Below are positions 5,717 through 18,513 of a stretch of 29,276 nucleotides of DNA, one piece after another. The DNA comes from an uncultured Verrucomicrobiota bacterium (GTDB lineage: Bacteria > Verrucomicrobiota > Verrucomicrobiia > Limisphaerales > CAYQCZ01): assembly GCA_964415955.1 (NCBI GenBank), contig CAYQCZ010000002.1:1-29276 (forward strand), read 5' to 3'. The position numbers and the translations under genes are program-made. The notes under the pieces were generated by a model. The model saw only the letters and a program-made list of their open reading frames with translations, made no database searches and was not told the origin of the DNA. Position 1 is the stretch's first letter. Each line of letters begins with the position of its first letter.

Positions 5717-7609
5717 ATGAGAGAGGAACTAGAGAAACTGGCTGCAGCCGGGAAGATCGGGAAGCAGGATGTCGATCCCCTGGTGCAACTGGCCACCAGC
5801 GGCTATTGCATGCACAAGAGCTGGGGCTTTGGAAAAATCACCACGGTTGATGCGGTGCTGTCGCGCCTGAGCGTGGATTTCCAGGGCAAGGCCGGCCATT
5901 CGATGGATTTGTCCTTTGCCGCCAGTTCGCTGAAGCCCATTCCCGCCAGCCACATCCTTTCCCGCAAGCTTTCCGACCTCGCAGGACTTCGCCAGATGGC
6001 GGCCCTGCATCACCTGGACCTCATCAAGGTGGTCCTCAGCAGTTATGACGGCAGGGCCACCATCGAGCAGATCCAGCAGGTCCTCGTGCCCGAAGTCATT
6101 GCCGATGACTGGAAAAAATGGTGGGAGGTCGCCCGCCGCGAGATGAAGAAGGACGGCCACTTCCAGCTTCCCATCAAGAAAAACGACCCCGTGGTGTATC
6201 ACGAGCGGGAGGTGTCCCTGAAGGACAGCCTTCTGAACGAATTTCGCGAGGCCAAGGGCTTGAAGGCCCGCATCACGGTCATCACCGAGATGCTCAAGAA
6301 CCTGTCCGATCTCTCCGACGCCACGCACGCCGCCTCGGACATGATCACCGCGTTGAACATGGACATCCAGAGCCATCAACGCACACAGCCCGGGCTGGCC
6401 CTCGAGGCCATCTTCGCACGGGACGACCTCCGCAAGGCGCTCAATCTCCAACCCCAGGAAGGCGAAGTCACCGAGGCCATGGTCTGGGCCCAGGAAGCCC
6501 GGCTTTCGAGCGTGTGCGACCAGATGCCCGCCCAGAAACACCGGCGCGCCCTGCAATCCTACAAGGACGCCCACCCCGACACCTGGTCGGAGACCGTGCA
6601 GGACCTGCTCACCAGCGCCCCTGCCAAGCTCTGCGGCGAGTGCGCCCAGATTCTCGCCCAGTCGGGCAACCTTGATCAGCTCAAGGCCACGCTCGCGCGG
6701 CTGATCAGCCAGCATCAGGCCAGCACCGAGTTGTTGCTCTGGCTGGCCAAGGAACGCTCGGACACCTACGCCGACATCCTCGGCCCCGAGGTGTTCCGCG
6801 CCATGATCACTGCGATCGAGCGTGACCAGTTCAACGAGAAGAAGTCCAACCGGCTGCCGGATTACATCCTCAGCGACCACGAGTTGATCCCGGACCTGAT
6901 CGAGGCGGCGGACATCGAGGTGATCAGGGATCTCACGCGCGCCCTTCAGTTCTCCCCCAGTTTTGATGACATGGACAAGCGGTCCCTGCTGGCCCGCATC
7001 GTCAAGGTCTTTCCCGCCGTGCAGTCGCTCATCTCCGGCGAATCCACCAAGCAGGACGCCGGCCTTCTGGTTTCCTGGGGCAGCCTCGAACGGCGCAAAT
7101 CAGAATACGAGGAGCTTGTTCAGAAGAAGATTCCGGCCAACTCGAAGGACATCGCCGTGGCCCGCAGTTACGGTGACCTCCGCGAAAACCACGAATACAA
7201 GGCGGCCAAGGAGATGCAGAAGGTGCTCATGCGCCGCAAACACGAGCTGGAAACCCAGCTCACACGGGCGCGTGGCACGGATTTCGCCAATCCCCGCACC
7301 GATGTCGTCAGCCCCGGCACCAAGGTCGCGCTCACGGACCTCGGCTCCGGCCAGCGTGAAACCTACGCCATCCTGGGCGCGTGGGATGGCGACCCCGACA
7401 AGGGCGTCATCAGTTACCTCACCCCCATGGCCCAGAGCATCCTGAACAGGAAAGCGGGCGAGGAGGTGGACTTCGACATGGAGGGTGTCACGAAACGTTA
7501 CCGCGTGGAATCCATCGAAGCCGTCGATCCCGCCCTGATTCCCGCCCAGTCTGAATCCATTCCTGCGGCTGCCACGCCGGCATCCGGCGAACCGGCCGCG
7601 GCAGGCTGA
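5717..7609 (+). CDS. greA: transcription elongation factor GreA/GreB family, long form with ~450-aa N-terminal extension
   Basis: C-terminal IAVARSYGDLRENHEYKAAKE and ILGAWDGDPDKGVISYLTPMAQSIL match the Gre family. Confidence 0.9.
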   Translation: MREELEKLAAAGKIGKQDVDPLVQLATSGYCMHKSWGFGKITTVDAVLSRLSVDFQGKAGHSMDLSFAASSLKPIPASHILSRKLSDLAGLRQMAALHHLDLIKVVLSSYDGRATIEQIQQVLVPEVIADDWKKWWEVARREMKKDGHFQLPIKKNDPVVYHEREVSLKDSLLNEFREAKGLKARITVITEMLKNLSDLSDATHAASDMITALNMDIQSHQRTQPGLALEAIFARDDLRKALNLQPQEGEVTEAMVWAQEARLSSVCDQMPAQKHRRALQSYKDAHPDTWSETVQDLLTSAPAKLCGECAQILAQSGNLDQLKATLARLISQHQASTELLLWLAKERSDTYADILGPEVFRAMITAIERDQFNEKKSNRLPDYILSDHELIPDLIEAADIEVIRDLTRALQFSPSFDDMDKRSLLARIVKVFPAVQSLISGESTKQDAGLLVSWGSLERRKSEYEELVQKKIPANSKDIAVARSYGDLRENHEYKAAKEMQKVLMRRKHELETQLTRARGTDFANPRTDVVSPGTKVALTDLGSGQRETYAILGAWDGDPDKGVISYLTPMAQSILNRKAGEEVDFDMEGVTKRYRVESIEAVDPALIPAQSESIPAAATPASGEPAAAG

Positions 7610-12850: not shown

Positions 12851-13084
12851 TCAGGCGTGGGTCAATTCACGGACATGGTTCACGTCCCGTTTGCCAACGG
12901 GGCGCACGTTGCACGCGTCCACCGTGATGATGGCGATGGTTTTGCCTGCCAGCGTATTGAACTCCACTTCGTAGGCCTCGCCGCCATTGTGGGCATGCAC
13001 CACTGTGCCGACATCGCCCGCCTCAAGCCCTTCGGCGGGCACATTGGTGGTCAACACCACGCAGTCATGCTCTTTGATTTTCAT
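12851..13084 (-). CDS. DUF4926 family protein (putative antitoxin)
   Basis: HDCVVLTTNVPAEGLEAGDVGTVV...YEVEF pattern; 77 aa. Confidence 0.85.
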   Translation of the reverse strand: MKIKEHDCVVLTTNVPAEGLEAGDVGTVVHAHNGGEAYEVEFNTLAGKTIAIITVDACNVRPVGKRDVNHVRELTHA

Positions 13085-13422
13085 AACGCCTCCGAAGGAT
13101 ACGCACTGATCAAGCGCGGCGCAACCGTGCCTTTGTCCATCTGCCAGACCGTTCGCACATGCGGACGCCGGCCGGATGGAGTGTTCAATTCCCCTTCCAC
13201 AATGTAACGCGGGCCGAATCCTGTTTCACACACGTGCGCCACGTCATGCACCCAGCCGTGTTCACGCAGGCGCTCCGCGAACACTTCCCAGTGGTCGATC
13301 TGAAAACCGAATTGTGAGAAGAATCGCGCCTTGCCTGCACCGTAACGATGCGCGGGATTGAGCAGGTAATCCACAATCTTCCCGCGTTCCACAATCAACT
13401 GGTCTGGTTGCGGCAATTTCAT
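13081..13422 (-). CDS. DUF6883 family protein (putative toxin)
   Basis: KIVDYLLNPAH...GKARFF..FGF and RTVW...PRLISAYP pattern; ATGA overlap with DUF4926. Confidence 0.85.
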   Translation of the reverse strand: MKLPQPDQLIVERGKIVDYLLNPAHRYGAGKARFFSQFGFQIDHWEVFAERLREHGWVHDVAHVCETGFGPRYIVEGELNTPSGRRPHVRTVWQMDKGTVAPRLISAYPSEAL

Positions 13423-13732: not shown

Positions 13733-14656
13733 ATGAACACGAATCCCATCAACCGCCGCGAATTCCTGTCCCACGCCGCCTCCACCACCGCCGTGTTGTC
13801 CGTCACAGGCGCAGCCATGACGCATGCAGCACCCGCAGCAACAACGTTCCGCATCCAGGCCGACCAGGTGCGCAGCCTTGCCGCTGGTCCGCAGGGACAG
13901 CTGGTCGTGGCGGCGGATGACCGGCTGGTGTTTCACCGTGCGGATGGCACGCTGGAACGATCCCTTCCCACCGGCCTGCCGGTGCGTGCGGTGGCGTTCG
14001 ATGGCAAGGGTGGTCTCTTCCTGAGTTTCAAGGATCAGGTGGCGCGCGTGGTGGATGGCAGCACGATTGAACGGCTCGGCAGTTCGCTGGGCCGCCAGAG
14101 TGCGCTGACCGGGCTGGCGGTGTCTGACGCCGGGGACATCTTTGCCGCCGACAGTGGTGAACGTGTGATCTGGAGGCTGGATGCGAAGGGCGCGGTGAAG
14201 GGGCGCATCACTCCCGAGGGCAGGGAATTCACGGTGCCGCGGGCGTTCTTCCCCATCGCATGGCATGACGGACGATTGCTGGTGGCGGACCCCGGCAGGC
14301 ATCAGGTGCAGGCGTATTCGGCGGAGGGCCGGTTGCTCGGTCAATGGGGCCATCGCTCGCGTGAGGAGGATGGATTTTCCGGCTGTTGCAATCCCGTGGC
14401 GCTGACGGTGCTGGCAGATGGCGCGTTCATCACCGCCGAGCGCGGGCAGACGCGCGTGAAGCAGTTTGACGCGCAGGGACGGCTTGCGCGCGTGCTGGCC
14501 GGACCGGAGCAATTTCTCGAGAGCACCCAGTCGGGCAAAGGCGGGGCCGATGACCTGCCCGGTTGTGACGGCGGCCTGCTGGACGTGGCCGGACTTCCCG
14601 GCGGCAAGGTTGCCGTGCTCGACCGCACCACACGCAAGGTGCGTATTCTTGGCTGA
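13733..14656 (+). CDS. Tat-exported NHL-repeat beta-propeller with GCCNP motif
   Basis: NRREFLS twin-arginine signal; NHL-like blades (GDIFAADSG, LLVADPGRHQV); FSGCCNP. Confidence 0.8.
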   Translation: MNTNPINRREFLSHAASTTAVLSVTGAAMTHAAPAATTFRIQADQVRSLAAGPQGQLVVAADDRLVFHRADGTLERSLPTGLPVRAVAFDGKGGLFLSFKDQVARVVDGSTIERLGSSLGRQSALTGLAVSDAGDIFAADSGERVIWRLDAKGAVKGRITPEGREFTVPRAFFPIAWHDGRLLVADPGRHQVQAYSAEGRLLGQWGHRSREEDGFSGCCNPVALTVLADGAFITAERGQTRVKQFDAQGRLARVLAGPEQFLESTQSGKGGADDLPGCDGGLLDVAGLPGGKVAVLDRTTRKVRILG

Positions 14657-14676
14657 GGATCCTGGCTATTCGCGTC

Positions 14677-16014
14677 ATGAAGCCTTCACTCAAAGTCACC
14701 TGTGCAGCGCTCTGTCTGGTGCTTGGCTGCCCGTTGCTCACAGGCGCGGAAGCTCCTTCTCTCGAAAAGCCCACGCACAAGGAAATCGAGCCGATCAAGA
14801 TTGCCATCGGGAATGACGGGCACCTCAAGACCATCGCCATGGACAGCAAGGGCAACCTGCTGGTGGGCGTCTCGTGGCTGCCAGAAGGTGCCGCGCCATC
14901 GCCCAAGCATGAACCGCCCGGCAAGCCGGAGTCCGCTGCGCCCGGCGAGGCCAGGGGGCGTGACAAGGTGTTGAAACTCGTGCGTGATGCCGTGGCTGCG
15001 GCCACACCTGAAGCGTGGGATAAAGTGGCCGATCAGGTGACACCCCAGGAGTTTCGCGACGCGATGTCCTCCGCCGGCCCCGCCGAGCGACGTCCCATCA
15101 TGGAGGCGATGCCGCCCGAGGTGCGGCAGAAGTTGATGGCAGGGTTTCGTGGCCCCGGCGGGTCGCCCGGCAAGGGCCGCCCCCAAGGTCCCGGCGGACA
15201 GATGTCCGATGCGCGCGGCGGGATTCTACCCCAGTTGTCCATCGATGGCACAGGCCATATCTACGCGCTCAAGGTGGTGAGCCCCGATGGAAAAGTCCTC
15301 GCCACATGGCCCATGACCGACGGCCTTCAACCCAAGATGATTTTCGGGCATCCGGATGGCACAGTGTATGTCGCGGGCGGCGGTCGGCTGGCGCAATTTG
15401 ACGACAAGGGCAAACGCCTCCGTATGGTGGACACCGATGCCATCTACGGCCAGAAGGCCGCTGCCAGCGGACTATGCGCCGATGAGAAGCACGTCTTCAT
15501 CGCCTTCGGCATGGGCAACAGCCTGCGTGCCACCGAGGACATCTACCGTTTCAAACGCGACCTCACCGAACCCGCGAAGATTGTCGAACGCCAGTATGGC
15601 TGCTGCAGTCACATCGATCTCCGTTCGGCAGGCGGCGAGCTGCTCATTGCTGAAAACTCACGTCACCGCGTGAACCGCTTTGATCCGGATGGCAAACAGC
15701 TTGGCACGTGGGGCCGGCGCGACCGCGAGGACATTGCCGGCTTCACCGCGTGCTGCAACCCGTGCAATTTCGACTTCGGCCCCGGTGGTGTGCTTTATAC
15801 CGCCGAGTCCGGCGTGGGCCGCGTCAAGAAATACGCTGCGGACGGCACCTTCCTCGGGCTGGTCGGCCACGTGGACACCACCAAGTTCGACAACGGCAGC
15901 CAGCTCGCGGCGATTTCCTGCTACATCCCCATCGAGGTGAACCACGATGCCAGCCGCATCTACGTGATGGACGTTCGCGCCCACATCATCCGCGTGCTGG
16001 CAAAACAGGACTGA
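14677..16014 (+). CDS. exported NHL-like beta-propeller with GCCSH and ACCNPC motifs
   Basis: Signal peptide; LLIAENSRHRV and LYTAESGVGRV blades; QYGCCSHID and FTACCNPCNF. Confidence 0.8.
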   Translation: MKPSLKVTCAALCLVLGCPLLTGAEAPSLEKPTHKEIEPIKIAIGNDGHLKTIAMDSKGNLLVGVSWLPEGAAPSPKHEPPGKPESAAPGEARGRDKVLKLVRDAVAAATPEAWDKVADQVTPQEFRDAMSSAGPAERRPIMEAMPPEVRQKLMAGFRGPGGSPGKGRPQGPGGQMSDARGGILPQLSIDGTGHIYALKVVSPDGKVLATWPMTDGLQPKMIFGHPDGTVYVAGGGRLAQFDDKGKRLRMVDTDAIYGQKAAASGLCADEKHVFIAFGMGNSLRATEDIYRFKRDLTEPAKIVERQYGCCSHIDLRSAGGELLIAENSRHRVNRFDPDGKQLGTWGRRDREDIAGFTACCNPCNFDFGPGGVLYTAESGVGRVKKYAADGTFLGLVGHVDTTKFDNGSQLAAISCYIPIEVNHDASRIYVMDVRAHIIRVLAKQD

Positions 16015-16021
16015 GCGTCGC

Positions 16022-18001
16022 GTGGACATCCGCCTTCGCACACTATCCAGCATGGCCTGTCTGTGGCTGCACGTGGCCGCCGTGGCATCTGCCGCCGAAC
16101 CCCTTCACATGATCGTCATGGACCCGCTGGCCGCGCCGCTGGCTTGCGCCTGCGTGCCCGGCACGGGCCAGCGCCGTTACGACGAGCTGGCGAAGCACTT
16201 CGAAGCGCACCTGAGCCGCCCGGTGCAGGTCACTTTCGATGAAAGCCTGAAGCTCGCCCGTGAACGCACCGGCGGCCGCGCCGACATCATCATCGGCAAG
16301 GATTCCATGGTGCGTCACGATGCCGCAAAAGCCGGTCTGAACATCCACACCATCGCCGCGCTCACGGACAACTCCGGCTCCACCACCTTCAAGGGCGTGT
16401 TCCTGGTGGCAAAGAATTTTCCCGCGCGCTCGCTCCGGCAGTTGGCTGGCAAGCGCATCGGCCTGGGGCCCGCCGAGGAGGAGGAATCGCACGGTGCCGC
16501 GCGGCGCGCGTTGACGGGTGTCGCCGTGGCATGGAAACACTTTGGCAGCATGGATGCCGCCGCAATCGCCATGAACGACGGCGAGGTGGATGCGGCGGTG
16601 GTTTCCGATTTCCTGCCGCGGCTGCTGGAAGGCTGCGGCAAGCTCGACAAAGGCGAGTTCAAGGTGATTGGCGAAACTGCGCCCTTGGCGTTCATCCGCG
16701 TGTTCGCAAACACGACCGTGGACACGGCTTTGGAGGAAAGGATTGTGCAGGGGTTGCTGGCAGTGGCGGACCAGCCGGCATTGCTGGCGGCGATGGAAAG
16801 CAAATCGGGTTTTGTGAAACCGGGCGGGGAATCTGTGACGGCCTGGACGGACTGGCGTGGGCCGAACCGCGCCGGTGTCGTGCCGCAATTGCCGCAGTCG
16901 CTGCCTGCGCAGTTGCCCGTGATCTGGCGCGCCGGACTGACCGGTCCCGCAATGGCCGGACCGGCGGCCACGGAGGAACTGGTCGTCGTGCCGGACAAAT
17001 CGGAGGACTTCAAACGCGACGTGTTCCGCTGCCTGAGTGCAAAGGACGGCGCCACACGCTGGACCTACAGCCACCCGGCGCCGGACGATCTGGAGTATTC
17101 CAACGCGCCCCGCGCCACGCCGGTGATCCATGACGGGCGCGTGTATGTGCAGGGTGCGTTGGGGCATCTGCACTGCCTGGAACTGGCCACGGGCAAGGTC
17201 CTCTGGCAGGTGCATCTCTACACGGATTTCGGTGCTGACAAACTCACCTGGGGCACGTCCGTGCCGCCGCTTGTCGTGGATGATGTGTTGATCGTCGCGC
17301 CCGGCGCGAAGCACGCCTCGGTGGCTGCGCTTGATTTGAAAACCGGCCGCGTCCGCTGGCAGACACCCGGCCATTCCGCCGCCTACTCCGCCTTCATCCG
17401 CGCCACGTTCGATGGCGTGGACCAGATCATCGGCTACGATGTCGCCGGTCTGGGCGGGTGGAATCCCAAGACCGGCCAGCGCCTCTGGGAACTGGTGCCG
17501 CCCGGCGGTGCGGATTTCAATGTCACCACGCCCGTCGTGCTGGGCAACCAACTGCTGCTCGCCGCCGAGAACAACGCCACGCGCCTGCATTCCTTTGATG
17601 GCAAAGGCCGCATCGTTCAACAGCCCGCTTCGCAGAACAAAGACATGGCCCCGGATACATGCACGCCCGCCGTGGTGAACGGGCGTGTGTTCGCCACCGC
17701 GTATGGAGAACTGTTCTGTCTCGATGCGCGCGACGGCTTGAAGACCATCTGGCGCAAGGCCGACGACATGTTCCACGACCACTCGAACATTGTTGCCGGG
17801 AAGGATCATGTGCTGGTCTGGACGATGTCCGGCGACCTGCTGCTGGTGGATGCCATGGCGGACAGCTACAAAGTGATTTCCCACCTGCGTCCGCTGGTGG
17901 AGAAACACCCCGACTCCATGGCGCATCCCGCGTTTGCCGGGGACCGCATTTATCTCCGATCGCCAAGGGAGCTGCTGTGTTTGCGGCTGACCCGGCCGTA
18001 G
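16022..18001 (+). CDS. fusion of PhnD/SsuA-like substrate-binding domain (CxC motif) and BamB/PQQ-like beta-propeller
   Basis: N-terminal MDPLAAPLACACVPG and SLRQLAGKRIGLGP; C-terminal WTDWRGPNRAG, RATPVIHDGRVY and repeated D..TG...W blades. Confidence 0.8.
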   Translation: MDIRLRTLSSMACLWLHVAAVASAAEPLHMIVMDPLAAPLACACVPGTGQRRYDELAKHFEAHLSRPVQVTFDESLKLARERTGGRADIIIGKDSMVRHDAAKAGLNIHTIAALTDNSGSTTFKGVFLVAKNFPARSLRQLAGKRIGLGPAEEEESHGAARRALTGVAVAWKHFGSMDAAAIAMNDGEVDAAVVSDFLPRLLEGCGKLDKGEFKVIGETAPLAFIRVFANTTVDTALEERIVQGLLAVADQPALLAAMESKSGFVKPGGESVTAWTDWRGPNRAGVVPQLPQSLPAQLPVIWRAGLTGPAMAGPAATEELVVVPDKSEDFKRDVFRCLSAKDGATRWTYSHPAPDDLEYSNAPRATPVIHDGRVYVQGALGHLHCLELATGKVLWQVHLYTDFGADKLTWGTSVPPLVVDDVLIVAPGAKHASVAALDLKTGRVRWQTPGHSAAYSAFIRATFDGVDQIIGYDVAGLGGWNPKTGQRLWELVPPGGADFNVTTPVVLGNQLLLAAENNATRLHSFDGKGRIVQQPASQNKDMAPDTCTPAVVNGRVFATAYGELFCLDARDGLKTIWRKADDMFHDHSNIVAGKDHVLVWTMSGDLLLVDAMADSYKVISHLRPLVEKHPDSMAHPAFAGDRIYLRSPRELLCLRLTRP

Positions 18002-18009
18002 TTCGTCGT

Positions 18010-18513
18010 TCAATCAACGGACAGCGCCGTCTGAATCCGCCGCACCAGCCGCACCGAGCCCGTGCCGCGCCGCTTCAACTCATGCTCCCACACGCGCAGC
18101 ACACGCCAGCCCGCCCTGCGCAACGCACGGTTCACCCGCCGGTCCCGCGCCGCGTTCGCCGCCAGCTTCTTCCGCCAGAACACACCATTCTGCTTCGGTT
18201 TCGTGGCGTGCTTCGGACAACCATGCCAGAAACAACCGTCCACGAAGATCACCGTCCGTTGTTTGGGAAATACGAAGTCGGGACGGACGGTGAGTTGATG
18301 GTCGTTGGATGATGGTCGATGGGTGCCACGCTGTTTCCGCCCATCAACCCTCAACCGTGAACCCCCAACCGCGATGCGCAGATGTCTTCTCCACCCTGAA
18401 ATCCGGTGTGCACGGAGCAACCGCACCAGCGCCAGCTCCGTGTCCTTGTTGCCCCGCGAACGGATGCGCGACATCACCGCGCTGCGCTTCGCTTTGGAAA
18501 AGACATCGGCCAC
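18010..18513 (-). CDS. vsr: very short patch repair endonuclease with an internal insertion
   Basis: DVFSKAKRSAVMSRIRSRGNKDTE, RPDFVF, FVDGCFWHGCP, FWRKKLAANAARD, GWRVLRVWEHE. Confidence 0.92.
   Translation of the reverse strand: MADVFSKAKRSAVMSRIRSRGNKDTELALVRLLRAHRISGWRRHLRIAVGGSRLRVDGRKQRGTHRPSSNDHQLTVRPDFVFPKQRTVIFVDGCFWHGCPKHATKPKQNGVFWRKKLAANAARDRRVNRALRRAGWRVLRVWEHELKRRGTGSVRLVRRIQTALSVD
18291..18375. repeat. inverted pair of degenerate heptamer arrays inside vsr
   Basis: TTGATGG-like x4 (18295-18322) facing CCATCAA-like x5 (18341-18375). Confidence 0.75.

What the first reader, a model, noticed from the sequence alone, without database searches (positions are those of the whole stretch)
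13733..18001. Uncharacterised three-gene exported beta-propeller system with vicinal-cysteine motifs
Seen: three tightly spaced co-oriented genes (gaps 20 and 7 nt), all with N-terminal export-type signals. The first is Tat-type, which implies export in a folded or cofactor-loaded state. The two NHL propellers share an F(S/T)(G/A)CCNP motif, the second adds GCCSH and an extra Cys (CCNPC), and the third carries CAC in a binding-protein domain. Established: vicinal Cys-Cys disulfides are redox-relevant in PQQ alcohol dehydrogenases, and Cys clusters bind soft metals. Inference: a periplasmic thiol-redox or metal/chalcogen-handling complex with no named family function. No transporter or Fe-S partner is adjacent.
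Basis: partly seen in the sequence, partly recalled or inferred. Interest (0 to 1): 0.7.

Follow-up and report, generated by a model that had tools for sequence, protein, structure and literature searches.

The report
Exported cysteine-pair propeller gene trio
Three neighbouring genes encode exported propeller-shaped proteins that carry never-changing pairs of adjacent cysteines; the trio recurs in two bacterial phyla, belongs to a very large unstudied protein family, and most likely does thiol-based redox or metal chemistry outside the cytoplasm.

Summary
Three co-oriented genes (13733-14656, 14677-16014, 16022-18001; gaps 20 and 7 nt) encode a Tat-type NHL propeller (g1), a Sec-type NHL propeller (g2) and a PhnD-fold binding domain fused to an 8-bladed BamB-like propeller (g3).

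- **Motifs.** GCCSH, ACCNP and SC in g2, GFxGCCNP in g1 and CxC plus EGCGK in g3 are invariant across Verrucomicrobiota and Planctomycetota homologues.
- **Synteny.** In 13 loci only these three genes are shared.
- **Position.** In g2 the three Cys motifs lie just before the innermost strand of three successive blades. That is the usual active-site position of propeller enzymes.
- **g3 pocket.** The oxyanion loop (STSS in PtxB) is replaced by GPxEDxExH.
- **No characterised family explains the cassette.**
- **New link.** g1 belongs to a very large family with invariant GFxGCCNP. Its other members sit in a conserved cluster with NapG/NapH-like iron-sulfur electron carriers. This scan noted that cluster earlier on other DNA, but not this trio. 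Trio genomes lack NapH.
- **Negative checks.** No selenocysteine variant was found. The complex prediction gave no verdict.

Best reading (about 0.4): a self-contained periplasmic dithiol/disulfide relay. A cysteine-bound metal site is the main rival (about 0.3). The substrate is unknown.

The parts
13733..14656 (+). g1: Tat-type exported six-bladed NHL propeller (307 aa). The mature protein has exactly three Cys (218, 219, 278).
   Evidence: ORF. PF01436 NHL 36 bits against a cut-off of 20. Alignment A3. Closest to the NHL of NapGH-linked clusters (33% identity, 4e-38).
13754..13768 (+). Twin-arginine motif RREFL of g1
   Evidence: RRxF is conserved in orthologues. TIGR01409 scores 13.3 against 16.7.
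14372..14395 (+). GFSGCCNP signature of g1 (vicinal C218-C219)
   Evidence: Invariant in A3. CC.P is present in 126 of 126 top single-domain family members.
14555..14575 (+). LPGCDGG: third Cys of g1, at the equivalent position of the next blade
   Evidence: Kept in 17 of 19 aligned sequences; coordinates.
14677..16014 (+). g2: Sec-exported six-bladed NHL propeller (445 aa) with a variable helical/low-complexity insert (about residues 70-190)
   Evidence: ORF. Model pLDDT 80. Z 26.3 to the Mei-P26 NHL domain and Z 23.0 to PAL. 178 homologues, all unnamed.
15598..15612 (+). GCCSH (C309, C310, H312), just before strand A of blade IV
   Evidence: Invariant in A1 and A4. The position follows from the secondary structure of the model. 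It reads GCCGQ in the two-gene variants.
15739..15765 (+). GFTACCNPC (C359, C360 invariant; C363 varies C/V), just before strand A of blade V
15913..15930 (+). ISCYIP (C415 invariant), just before strand A of blade VI
16022..18001 (+). g3: Sec-exported fusion of a PhnD-fold binding domain (about residues 30-270) and an 8-bladed BamB/PQQ_2-like propeller (about 290-659)
   Evidence: PF12974 72 bits and PF13360 115 bits. Model pLDDT 89. Foldseek to BamB E 6.5e-21, and to tetrathionate hydrolase. 740 homologues with the same fusion.
16139..16156 (+). LACACV: invariant CxC loop inserted before helix 1 of the binding domain
   Evidence: Kept in two-gene variants at 34-36% identity. It lies outside the region alignable to PhnD/PtxB.
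16466..16492 (+). GPAEEEESH: acidic loop at the place of the oxyanion-binding STSS loop of PtxB/PhnD
   Evidence: Residue-by-residue alignments to 5o2j and 5jvb. P, E and E are nearly invariant.
16628..16642 (+). EGCGK: third invariant Cys of the binding domain

Best explanation
The cassette encodes a self-contained machine that works outside the cytoplasm through short-spaced cysteine pairs.

- **g1 and g2** are six-bladed NHL propellers. Their invariant vicinal Cys-Cys pairs sit at the mouth of the central channel: one pair plus one Cys in g1, and two pairs plus one Cys on three adjacent blades in g2. I read these pairs as redox-active dithiol/disulfide centres, as in the C-terminal Cys-Cys or Cys-Sec of thioredoxin reductases.
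- **g3** joins a BamB-like scaffold propeller to a PhnD-fold clamp. The clamp's anion pocket has been rebuilt with Glu/Glu/His and a new CxC loop, so it should hold a cationic or thiophilic ligand, not a phosphonate.

Working model: g3 captures the ligand or partner and hands it, or reducing equivalents, to the Cys cluster of g2 and on to g1 by thiol-disulfide exchange.

Shown: gene structure, export signals, invariance of the motifs, synteny, folds, the remodelled pocket, and kinship of g1 and the g3 propeller with the propellers of NapGH-linked clusters.

Inferred: convergence of the cysteines on one face, redox activity, the order of transfer, and physical association. The substrate is unknown.
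For: 1. In the basal family only two Cys are invariant and they are adjacent. A conventional structural disulfide has no partner there. Mature g1 has three Cys and g2 five invariant Cys, so at least one thiol in each is unpaired.
2. The three Cys motifs of g2 lie 2-4 residues before strand A of blades IV, V and VI. Strand A lines the channel, and by established knowledge of propeller enzymes the D-A loops form the active-site face. The flanking B-C loops (ENSRHR, TAESGxGR, MDxR) are invariant too.
3. The same three-blade pattern (GCCGQ, GCCEP, GC) survives at about 28% identity in two-gene variants. The CxC of g3 survives at 34-36% identity.
4. Relatives of g1 (33% identity, 4e-38) and of the g3 propeller (25% identity, 1e-30) are encoded with a Tat ferredoxin and a NapH-like polyferredoxin in 12 or more Verrucomicrobiota genomes and in L028. 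These propellers therefore end an electron path.
5. About half of the family has a membrane anchor or Sec signal rather than a Tat signal (66 against 52 of 126). The shared reactive group therefore cannot depend on a cofactor inserted in the cytoplasm.
6. The cassette is conserved as a unit in 13 loci with no other shared gene. The g2-g3 adjacency is kept in both gene orders.
Against: - There is no biochemical evidence.
- No electron donor or acceptor is encoded nearby. NapH-like genes were not found in G000 (88% complete) or in five other cassette genomes (90-97% complete), while five control genomes all matched.
- Iron-sulfur donors give one electron at a time and feed a metal centre more naturally than a disulfide.
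- The Glu/Glu/His/Cys pocket of g3 looks like a metal site.
- No selenocysteine variant, which would have marked a redox site, was found.
Confidence: 0.4

Rival explanations
1. Cysteine-ligated metal or metalloid centre. The vicinal Cys pairs, with conserved Glu/Asp/His, bind a soft metal loaded in the periplasm, such as Cu(I), Zn, Ni, Hg or As(III). The g3 clamp acts as the capturing or chaperoning domain. The cassette then sequesters, delivers or transforms that metal, or uses it as a catalytic redox centre.
For: - The g3 pocket has Glu/Glu/His in place of the Ser/Thr oxyanion loop, plus CxC and a third Cys.
- g2 has five clustered Cys plus an invariant His, and g1 has three Cys.
- g1 has a Tat-type signal.
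- By established knowledge, Cys-Cys and CxC motifs bind Hg, As and Cu in MerA, MerT, ArsD, CopG and CCS.
- Iron-sulfur donors in related clusters would suit a metal acceptor.
- There is a weak hit to the zinc chaperone AztD (17.8 bits).
Against: - No transporter, efflux pump, metal regulator or maturation gene is shared in 13 loci.
- The basal family keeps only two invariant Cys and no invariant His or Met.
- The His of GCCSH is Gln in the two-gene variants.
- The AztD score is far below its cut-off of 400.
- Many family members are Sec- or anchor-type, not Tat.
Confidence: 0.3
2. Non-catalytic envelope scaffold or binding proteins. The propellers act as protein-protein or glycan-binding platforms, like BamB or NHL domains elsewhere. 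The cysteines only stabilise the folds.
For: - The best structural matches are non-enzymatic NHL domains (Mei-P26, Brat, TRIM2) and BamB.
- No cofactor motif is recognisable.
- The flanking genes differ from locus to locus.
Against: - Adjacent cysteines cannot form ordinary stabilising disulfides.
- The Cys counts are odd.
- About 80 invariant positions between two phyla, concentrated on one face, point to an active site.
- Relatives are wired to electron carriers.
- The g3 clamp keeps a remodelled, conserved pocket.
Confidence: 0.1
3. A quinoprotein-type (PQQ) dehydrogenase system in which the vicinal disulfide assists PQQ, as in methanol dehydrogenase.
For: PF01011/PF13360 hits in g3. The vicinal disulfide next to PQQ in methanol dehydrogenase is established knowledge.
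Against: - TIGR03075 scores 38.7 bits against a cut-off of 480. The closest NCBIfam of that kind is an 'empty quinoprotein' group.
- The g3 propeller has no Cys-Cys. The pairs are in the NHL propellers, a different fold.
- No pqq genes are nearby.
Confidence: 0.03

Closest known systems
NapG/NapH-linked propeller clusters (membrane-anchored PQQ_2 propeller, CCNP NHL propeller, Tat ferredoxin, NapH-like polyferredoxin, second PQQ_2 propeller). I found no paper on them; they were noted repeatedly in this scan.
   Same: g1 shares the invariant GFxGCCNP signature and 33% identity with their NHL protein. The g3 propeller is 25% identical (1e-30) to their first PQQ_2 propeller. In both systems an NHL and a PQQ_2 gene are adjacent.
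   Different: - The trio has no ferredoxin, polyferredoxin or NADH flavoprotein, either at the locus or in the genome (with the control).
- It has a second NHL propeller with five invariant Cys.
- A PhnD-fold domain with CxC replaces the membrane anchor of the PQQ_2 propeller.
PhnD / PtxB phosphonate and phosphite binding proteins (PF12974; PDB 5jvb, 5o2j, 3p7i)
   Same: The fold and family of g3 residues about 50-266 (PF12974 72 bits; profile E 2e-12 to 5jvb).
   Different: - The oxyanion-binding STSS loop is GPxEDxExH.
- An extra CxC loop precedes helix 1.
- There is no ABC transporter.
- The domain is fused to a propeller.
- TIGR01098 scores 28 against 112 and TIGR03431 scores 12 against 261.
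BamB and other PQQ_2 propellers without PQQ (for example tetrathionate hydrolase, PDB 6l8a)
   Same: An eight-bladed propeller fold (Foldseek E 6.5e-21 to 3q7o and 7e-19 to 6l8a).
   Different: - TIGR03300 scores 67.6 bits against a cut-off of 285.
- g3 has no lipoprotein signal.
- It is fused to a binding domain.
- Its partners are NHL propellers, not BamA.
NHL propeller enzymes and domains (peptidyl-alpha-hydroxyglycine lyase PAL, PDB 3fw0; TRIM/Brat NHL domains)
   Same: A six-bladed NHL fold (Z 23-26). PAL shows that the central cavity of this fold can hold a catalytic metal site (established knowledge).
   Different: 12-17% identity. None of these has vicinal Cys motifs at the strand A entries.
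Vicinal Cys-Cys or Cys-Sec redox and metal centres (thioredoxin reductase C-terminus, MerA C-terminus, ArsD)
   Same: Adjacent cysteines serve as the working group. This is recalled knowledge, a lead for mechanism only.
   Different: Unrelated folds, cytoplasmic location and flavin partners. No homology.

Membership tests
NHL repeat beta-propeller (PF01436) | Pfam score above the gathering cut-off | tested here: met
   g1 36 bits and g2 21.3 bits against a cut-off of 20.
NHL repeat beta-propeller (PF01436) | Six-bladed propeller fold | tested here: met
   g2 model: Z 26.3, rmsd 2.6 over 255 residues to Mei-P26 NHL; Foldseek E 5e-11 to Thin NHL. g1 was not modelled.
CCNP-NHL family of NapGH-linked clusters (unnamed) | Invariant W-G-x7-8-G-F-x-G-C-C-N-P signature | tested here: met
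   g1 and g2 both carry it. 126 of 126 top family members have CC.P.
CCNP-NHL family of NapGH-linked clusters (unnamed) | Adjacent Tat ferredoxin and NapH-like polyferredoxin | tested here: not met
   Absent from the window and from 13 cassette loci. There is no NapH-like match in G000 or in five other cassette genomes. Five of five control genomes match.
PhnD/PtxB phosphonate-phosphite binding proteins | PF12974 domain | tested here: met
   72.3 bits against a cut-off of 27.
PhnD/PtxB phosphonate-phosphite binding proteins | Ser/Thr oxyanion-binding loop (STSS) | tested here: not met
   It aligns to PAEEEESH in g3; the family consensus is GPxEDxExH.
PhnD/PtxB phosphonate-phosphite binding proteins | Equivalog or subfamily score, and linkage to an ABC transporter | tested here: not met
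   TIGR01098 28 against 112; TIGR03431 12.1 against 261. No permease or ATPase gene in 13 loci.
PQQ-dependent alcohol dehydrogenases | Family score (TIGR03075), and a vicinal disulfide in the PQQ propeller | tested here: not met
   38.7 bits against 480. The g3 propeller has no Cys-Cys.
BamB | Equivalog score and lipoprotein signal | tested here: not met
   TIGR03300 67.6 against 285.2; NF008351 54 against 423. The g3 signal ends ASA-AEP with no lipobox. The fold similarity alone is met.
Tat-exported proteins | Twin-arginine signal | tested here: inconclusive
   RREFL is present and RRxF is conserved in orthologues, but TIGR01409 scores 13.3 against a cut-off of 16.7.
AztD zinc metallochaperone | Family score | tested here: not met
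   NF038015 17.8 bits against 400.
ScyD/ScyE/ScyF scytonemin NHL proteins | Family score | tested here: not met
   NF035926 28 against 350; NF033206 19.8 against 80.
Selenoprotein variants of the Cys-Cys site | In-frame TGA at either Cys codon in a homologue | tested here: not met
   Strict back-translated patterns gave 0 and 2 hits in genome contigs and 1 hit in metagenome contigs. All three hits are out of frame or not NHL genes. The patterns are strict, so rare variants could be missed.

The most novel reading that the evidence does not exclude
The trio is the free-standing catalytic end of an undescribed class of extracytoplasmic enzymes. These would be cofactor-less beta-propellers whose working group is a vicinal Cys-Cys pair at the channel mouth (the CCNP propellers). 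In anaerobes the class is fed by a NapGH-like iron-sulfur conduit. In aerobic Planctomycetota and Verrucomicrobiota it is replaced by a second multi-Cys propeller and a CxC-bearing binding domain. The family would then be a new kind of periplasmic thiol redox system alongside Dsb, DsbD and MsrPQ.
Probability: 0.3. Interest if true: 0.8.

Novelty: categorically new. Interest (0 to 1): 0.62.

Why it matters
- **Size of the family.** The CCNP-NHL signature marks a very large family with no studied member: 2,393 representatives of 50%-identity clusters at E <= 1e-30.
- **A simpler entry point.** Its relatives end a conserved electron path whose final reaction is unknown. The trio described here is a smaller, self-contained version in aerobic, partly cultivable lineages (Prosthecobacter, Pirellulaceae). 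All candidate reactive groups sit in three soluble exported proteins, so the chemistry of the whole family becomes testable by ordinary expression, thiol and metal analysis and structure work.
- **Ecological reach.** Some homologue clusters hold hundreds of metagenome member sequences, so the function may matter for trace-metal or redox processes in natural waters.

Tried and rejected
- **Complex prediction.** g2 with g3 (the Pirellulaceae pair, alignments A4 and A5) scored a median of 0.21 against a mark of 0.32, which is no verdict. It counts neither for nor against binding.
- **Selenocysteine check.** Patterns with TGA at the first or second Cys codon gave only three chance hits: an SDR gene, an unrelated frame, and a frame full of stops.
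- **Literature.** Six full-text searches found no paper on the motif, the trio or the NapGH-propeller cluster. NHL proteins of cytochrome clusters (PMC5815863) and SOQ1/NHLRC2 have their cysteines elsewhere.
- **Structure and feature searches.** Fold searches gave only generic NHL, BamB and tetrathionate hydrolase matches. ESM Atlas features gave only generic NHL clusters.
- **Considered and dropped:**
  - Formylglycine motif C-x-P-x-R: there is no Arg at +4.
  - Haem c CxxCH: absent.
  - Lipoprotein g2: the LVLGC of this copy is not conserved.
  - Cysteine tryptophylquinone: the invariant Trp is on the outer strand.
- **Promoter and terminator scan.** It gave nothing above shuffles.
- **Cys distances.** Model coordinates are not exposed, so Cys-Cys distances could not be measured.

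Full report
**Observation**

- g1: 13733-14656, 307 aa.
- g2: 14677-16014, 445 aa.
- g3: 16022-18001, 659 aa.
- All are on the + strand, with gaps of 20 and 7 nt.

g1 begins with a twin-arginine motif (N-R-R-E-F-L) that its orthologues keep. The TIGR01409 score is just under its cut-off (13.3 against 16.7). g2 and g3 have Sec-type signals. For g3, the GTG start at 16022 gives a charged n-region that the database start at 16052 lacks.

Pfam calls g1 and g2 NHL propellers. It calls g3 a PF12974 (PhnD-type) binding domain followed by a PQQ_2/BamB-type propeller.

Neighbouring genes are unrelated: a 3-keto-disaccharide hydrolase, a Gfo/Idh/MocA oxidoreductase, a DUF6883 protein and Vsr. The window is contig 2 of an 802-contig assembly that is 88% complete.

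**Conservation**

g2 has 178 or more homologues, all unnamed, from Verrucomicrobiota and Planctomycetota. In a 20-sequence alignment at 49-67% identity, these residues are invariant:
- C309, C310 and H312 (GCCSH).
- C359, C360, N361 and P362 (ACCNP).
- C415 (SCYIP).
- About 70 further positions.
- The extra Cys of CCNPC alternates with Val.

The g3 fusion has 740 homologues. The CxC loop, EGCGK and four Cys in the propeller are invariant.

In g1 the block W-G-x7-G-F-x-G-C-C-N-P is invariant. C278 is kept in 17 of 19 sequences.

Synteny holds in both phyla, in the order g1-g2-g3 or g2-g3-g1. Across 13 loci, the three genes are the only families shared beyond genus-level neighbours.

Distribution is patchy. 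g2 orthologues occur in 20 of 401 genomes of the same order and in 6 of 166 genera, but in 12 of 13 genomes of one genus.

A more divergent two-gene form pairs a g2-like NHL with a g3-like fusion. It keeps GCCGQ, GCCEP and GC in the NHL at about 28% identity, and the CxC in the fusion at 34-36% identity. The g2-g3 pair is therefore the conserved core.

**Anatomy**

The g2 model (pLDDT 80) is a canonical six-bladed NHL propeller:
- Z 26.3 to Mei-P26.
- Z 23.0 to the enzyme PAL.

Reading the strands of the model, blade VI is closed by the N-terminal strand. A variable helical insert sits inside blade I. In some metagenome homologue clusters this insert carries EF-hands.

GCCSH, ACCNP and SC each lie 2-4 residues before strand A of blades IV, V and VI. 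Strand A is the innermost strand, and the D-A loops form the face where propeller enzymes have their active sites (established knowledge). The five cysteines and the His should therefore ring half of the channel mouth. The neighbouring B-C loops on the same face are invariant as well.

Mature g1 has exactly three Cys. All are at these equivalent positions on two adjacent blades.

The g3 model (pLDDT 89) is a two-lobed binding domain plus an eight-bladed propeller. The propeller resembles BamB and tetrathionate hydrolase.

In residue-level alignments to PtxB and a PhnD-like protein:
- The oxyanion-binding STSS loop corresponds to PAEEEESH. The family consensus is GPxEDxExH.
- The CxC loop is an insertion before helix 1 and lies outside the alignable region.
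- The pocket therefore no longer suits a phosphonate. It looks built for a cation or a thiophilic ligand (inference).

**Relatives elsewhere**

A profile of g1 and its relatives finds 51,036 representatives at E <= 1e-3 and 2,393 at E <= 1e-30. Among the 150 best hits:
- All 126 single-domain proteins carry CC.P, nearly always as GFxGCCNP.
- 52 have Tat-like N-termini.
- 66 have a hydrophobic anchor or signal.

The anchored members sit in a conserved five-gene cluster:
1. An anchored PQQ_2 propeller.
2. A CCNP NHL propeller.
3. A Tat ferredoxin.
4. A NapH-like polyferredoxin.
5. A second PQQ_2 propeller.

A NuoF-like flavoprotein often follows the cluster. I found the cluster in 12 or more Verrucomicrobiota genomes.

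g1 is the closest window protein to that NHL (33% identity, 4e-38). The g3 propeller is closest to the first PQQ_2 protein (25% identity, 1e-30).

Earlier notes of this scan describe the same cluster many times as an NADH-to-periplasm iron-sulfur path that ends in propellers of unknown chemistry. They also mention CCNP in PQQ-like propellers. Those notes are unchecked leads. I reached the cluster independently and verified only its gene content. A look-up by the g2 sequence found no note of its cassette in any other genome.

The two systems do not overlap in the genomes tested. A NapH-like query matched 0 of 6 cassette genomes: G000 at 88% completeness and five others at 90-97%. It matched 5 of 5 genomes with the five-gene cluster.

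**Interpretation**

Three points argue that the cysteine pairs are working groups rather than structural staples:
- The basal family keeps only two Cys, and they are adjacent.
- Cys counts are odd.
- The motifs persist at very low identity, at the active-site face.

Association of relatives with iron-sulfur carriers points to redox chemistry. The mix of Tat, Sec and anchored forms argues against a cofactor loaded in the cytoplasm.

I therefore favour a dithiol/disulfide relay, at about 0.4. g3 would capture a ligand or partner with its CxC clamp, and g2 and g1 would act through their vicinal pairs.

The main rival, at about 0.3, is a cysteine-ligated metal or metalloid site loaded in the periplasm. 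The Glu/Glu/His/Cys pocket of g3 and the one-electron nature of iron-sulfur donors fit this rival well. The lack of any transporter, regulator or maturation gene in 13 loci, and the absence of invariant His or Met in the basal family, count against it.

A purely structural role (about 0.1) and a PQQ dehydrogenase role (about 0.03) are poorly supported.

The electron source or sink and the substrate of the free-standing trio remain unknown.

**Comparison with known systems**

Membership tests fail for PQQ dehydrogenases, BamB, PhnD/PtxB transport proteins, AztD and the Scy proteins. Only the generic folds (NHL, PF12974, PQQ_2) are met.

No paper describing the motif or the cassette was found. 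The cassette lies outside every characterised system I could test, so I rate it categorically new. The caveat is that this rests on absence of matches and on inference, not on demonstrated chemistry.

**What led nowhere**

- The g2-g3 complex prediction gave no verdict.
- The selenocysteine search found only chance hits.
- Fold and Atlas searches were generic.
- The promoter and terminator scan was uninformative.

Noticed in passing
L028:5595-11596; also L032-L038, L042-L045, L048: A conserved five-gene cluster: anchored PQQ_2 propeller, CCNP NHL propeller, Tat ferredoxin, NapH-like polyferredoxin, and a second PQQ_2 propeller. In L028 a NuoF-like flavoprotein follows. It occurs in many Verrucomicrobiota genomes that lack the trio.
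   Followed up: partly
L030:5848-8826, L031:4667-7701, L039:6266-10245, L040:2663-5979, L041:5674-8969: Two-gene variants of the cassette: a g2-like NHL with GCCGQ, GCCEP and GC, plus a g3-like CxC binding-domain/propeller fusion, with no g1. Some of these NHL proteins carry a further Cys-Cys (AQCC).
   Followed up: partly
P0037, P0040, P0069, P0074 and relatives (homologues of window 14677-16014): Metagenome g2 homologues carry EF-hand calcium-binding motifs inside the variable insert of blade I. Some of these clusters hold hundreds of member sequences.
   Followed up: no
window 16022-16054: The start of g3 is ambiguous. GTG at 16022 gives a proper charged signal n-region. The public gene call starts at ATG 16052 (649 aa).
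   Followed up: partly
window 5717-7609: A 630-aa protein has GreA/GreB N- and C-terminal domains only at residues 455-601. About 450 residues with no Pfam match precede them.
   Followed up: no
window 13081-13422: A DUF6883 gene on the minus strand sits between the Gfo/Idh/MocA oxidoreductase gene and the cassette.
   Followed up: no
window 18010-18513: The Vsr endonuclease gene matches its Pfam model in two stretches.
   Followed up: no
G089:C3:52579-53811: The NapH-like gene of one five-gene cluster has an in-frame TAA within the match.
   Followed up: no
L003:5073-5557: In the Pirellulaceae locus two TatA/B/E genes lie about 2.4 kb upstream of the cassette, on the opposite strand. This is not seen in the other loci.
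   Followed up: no
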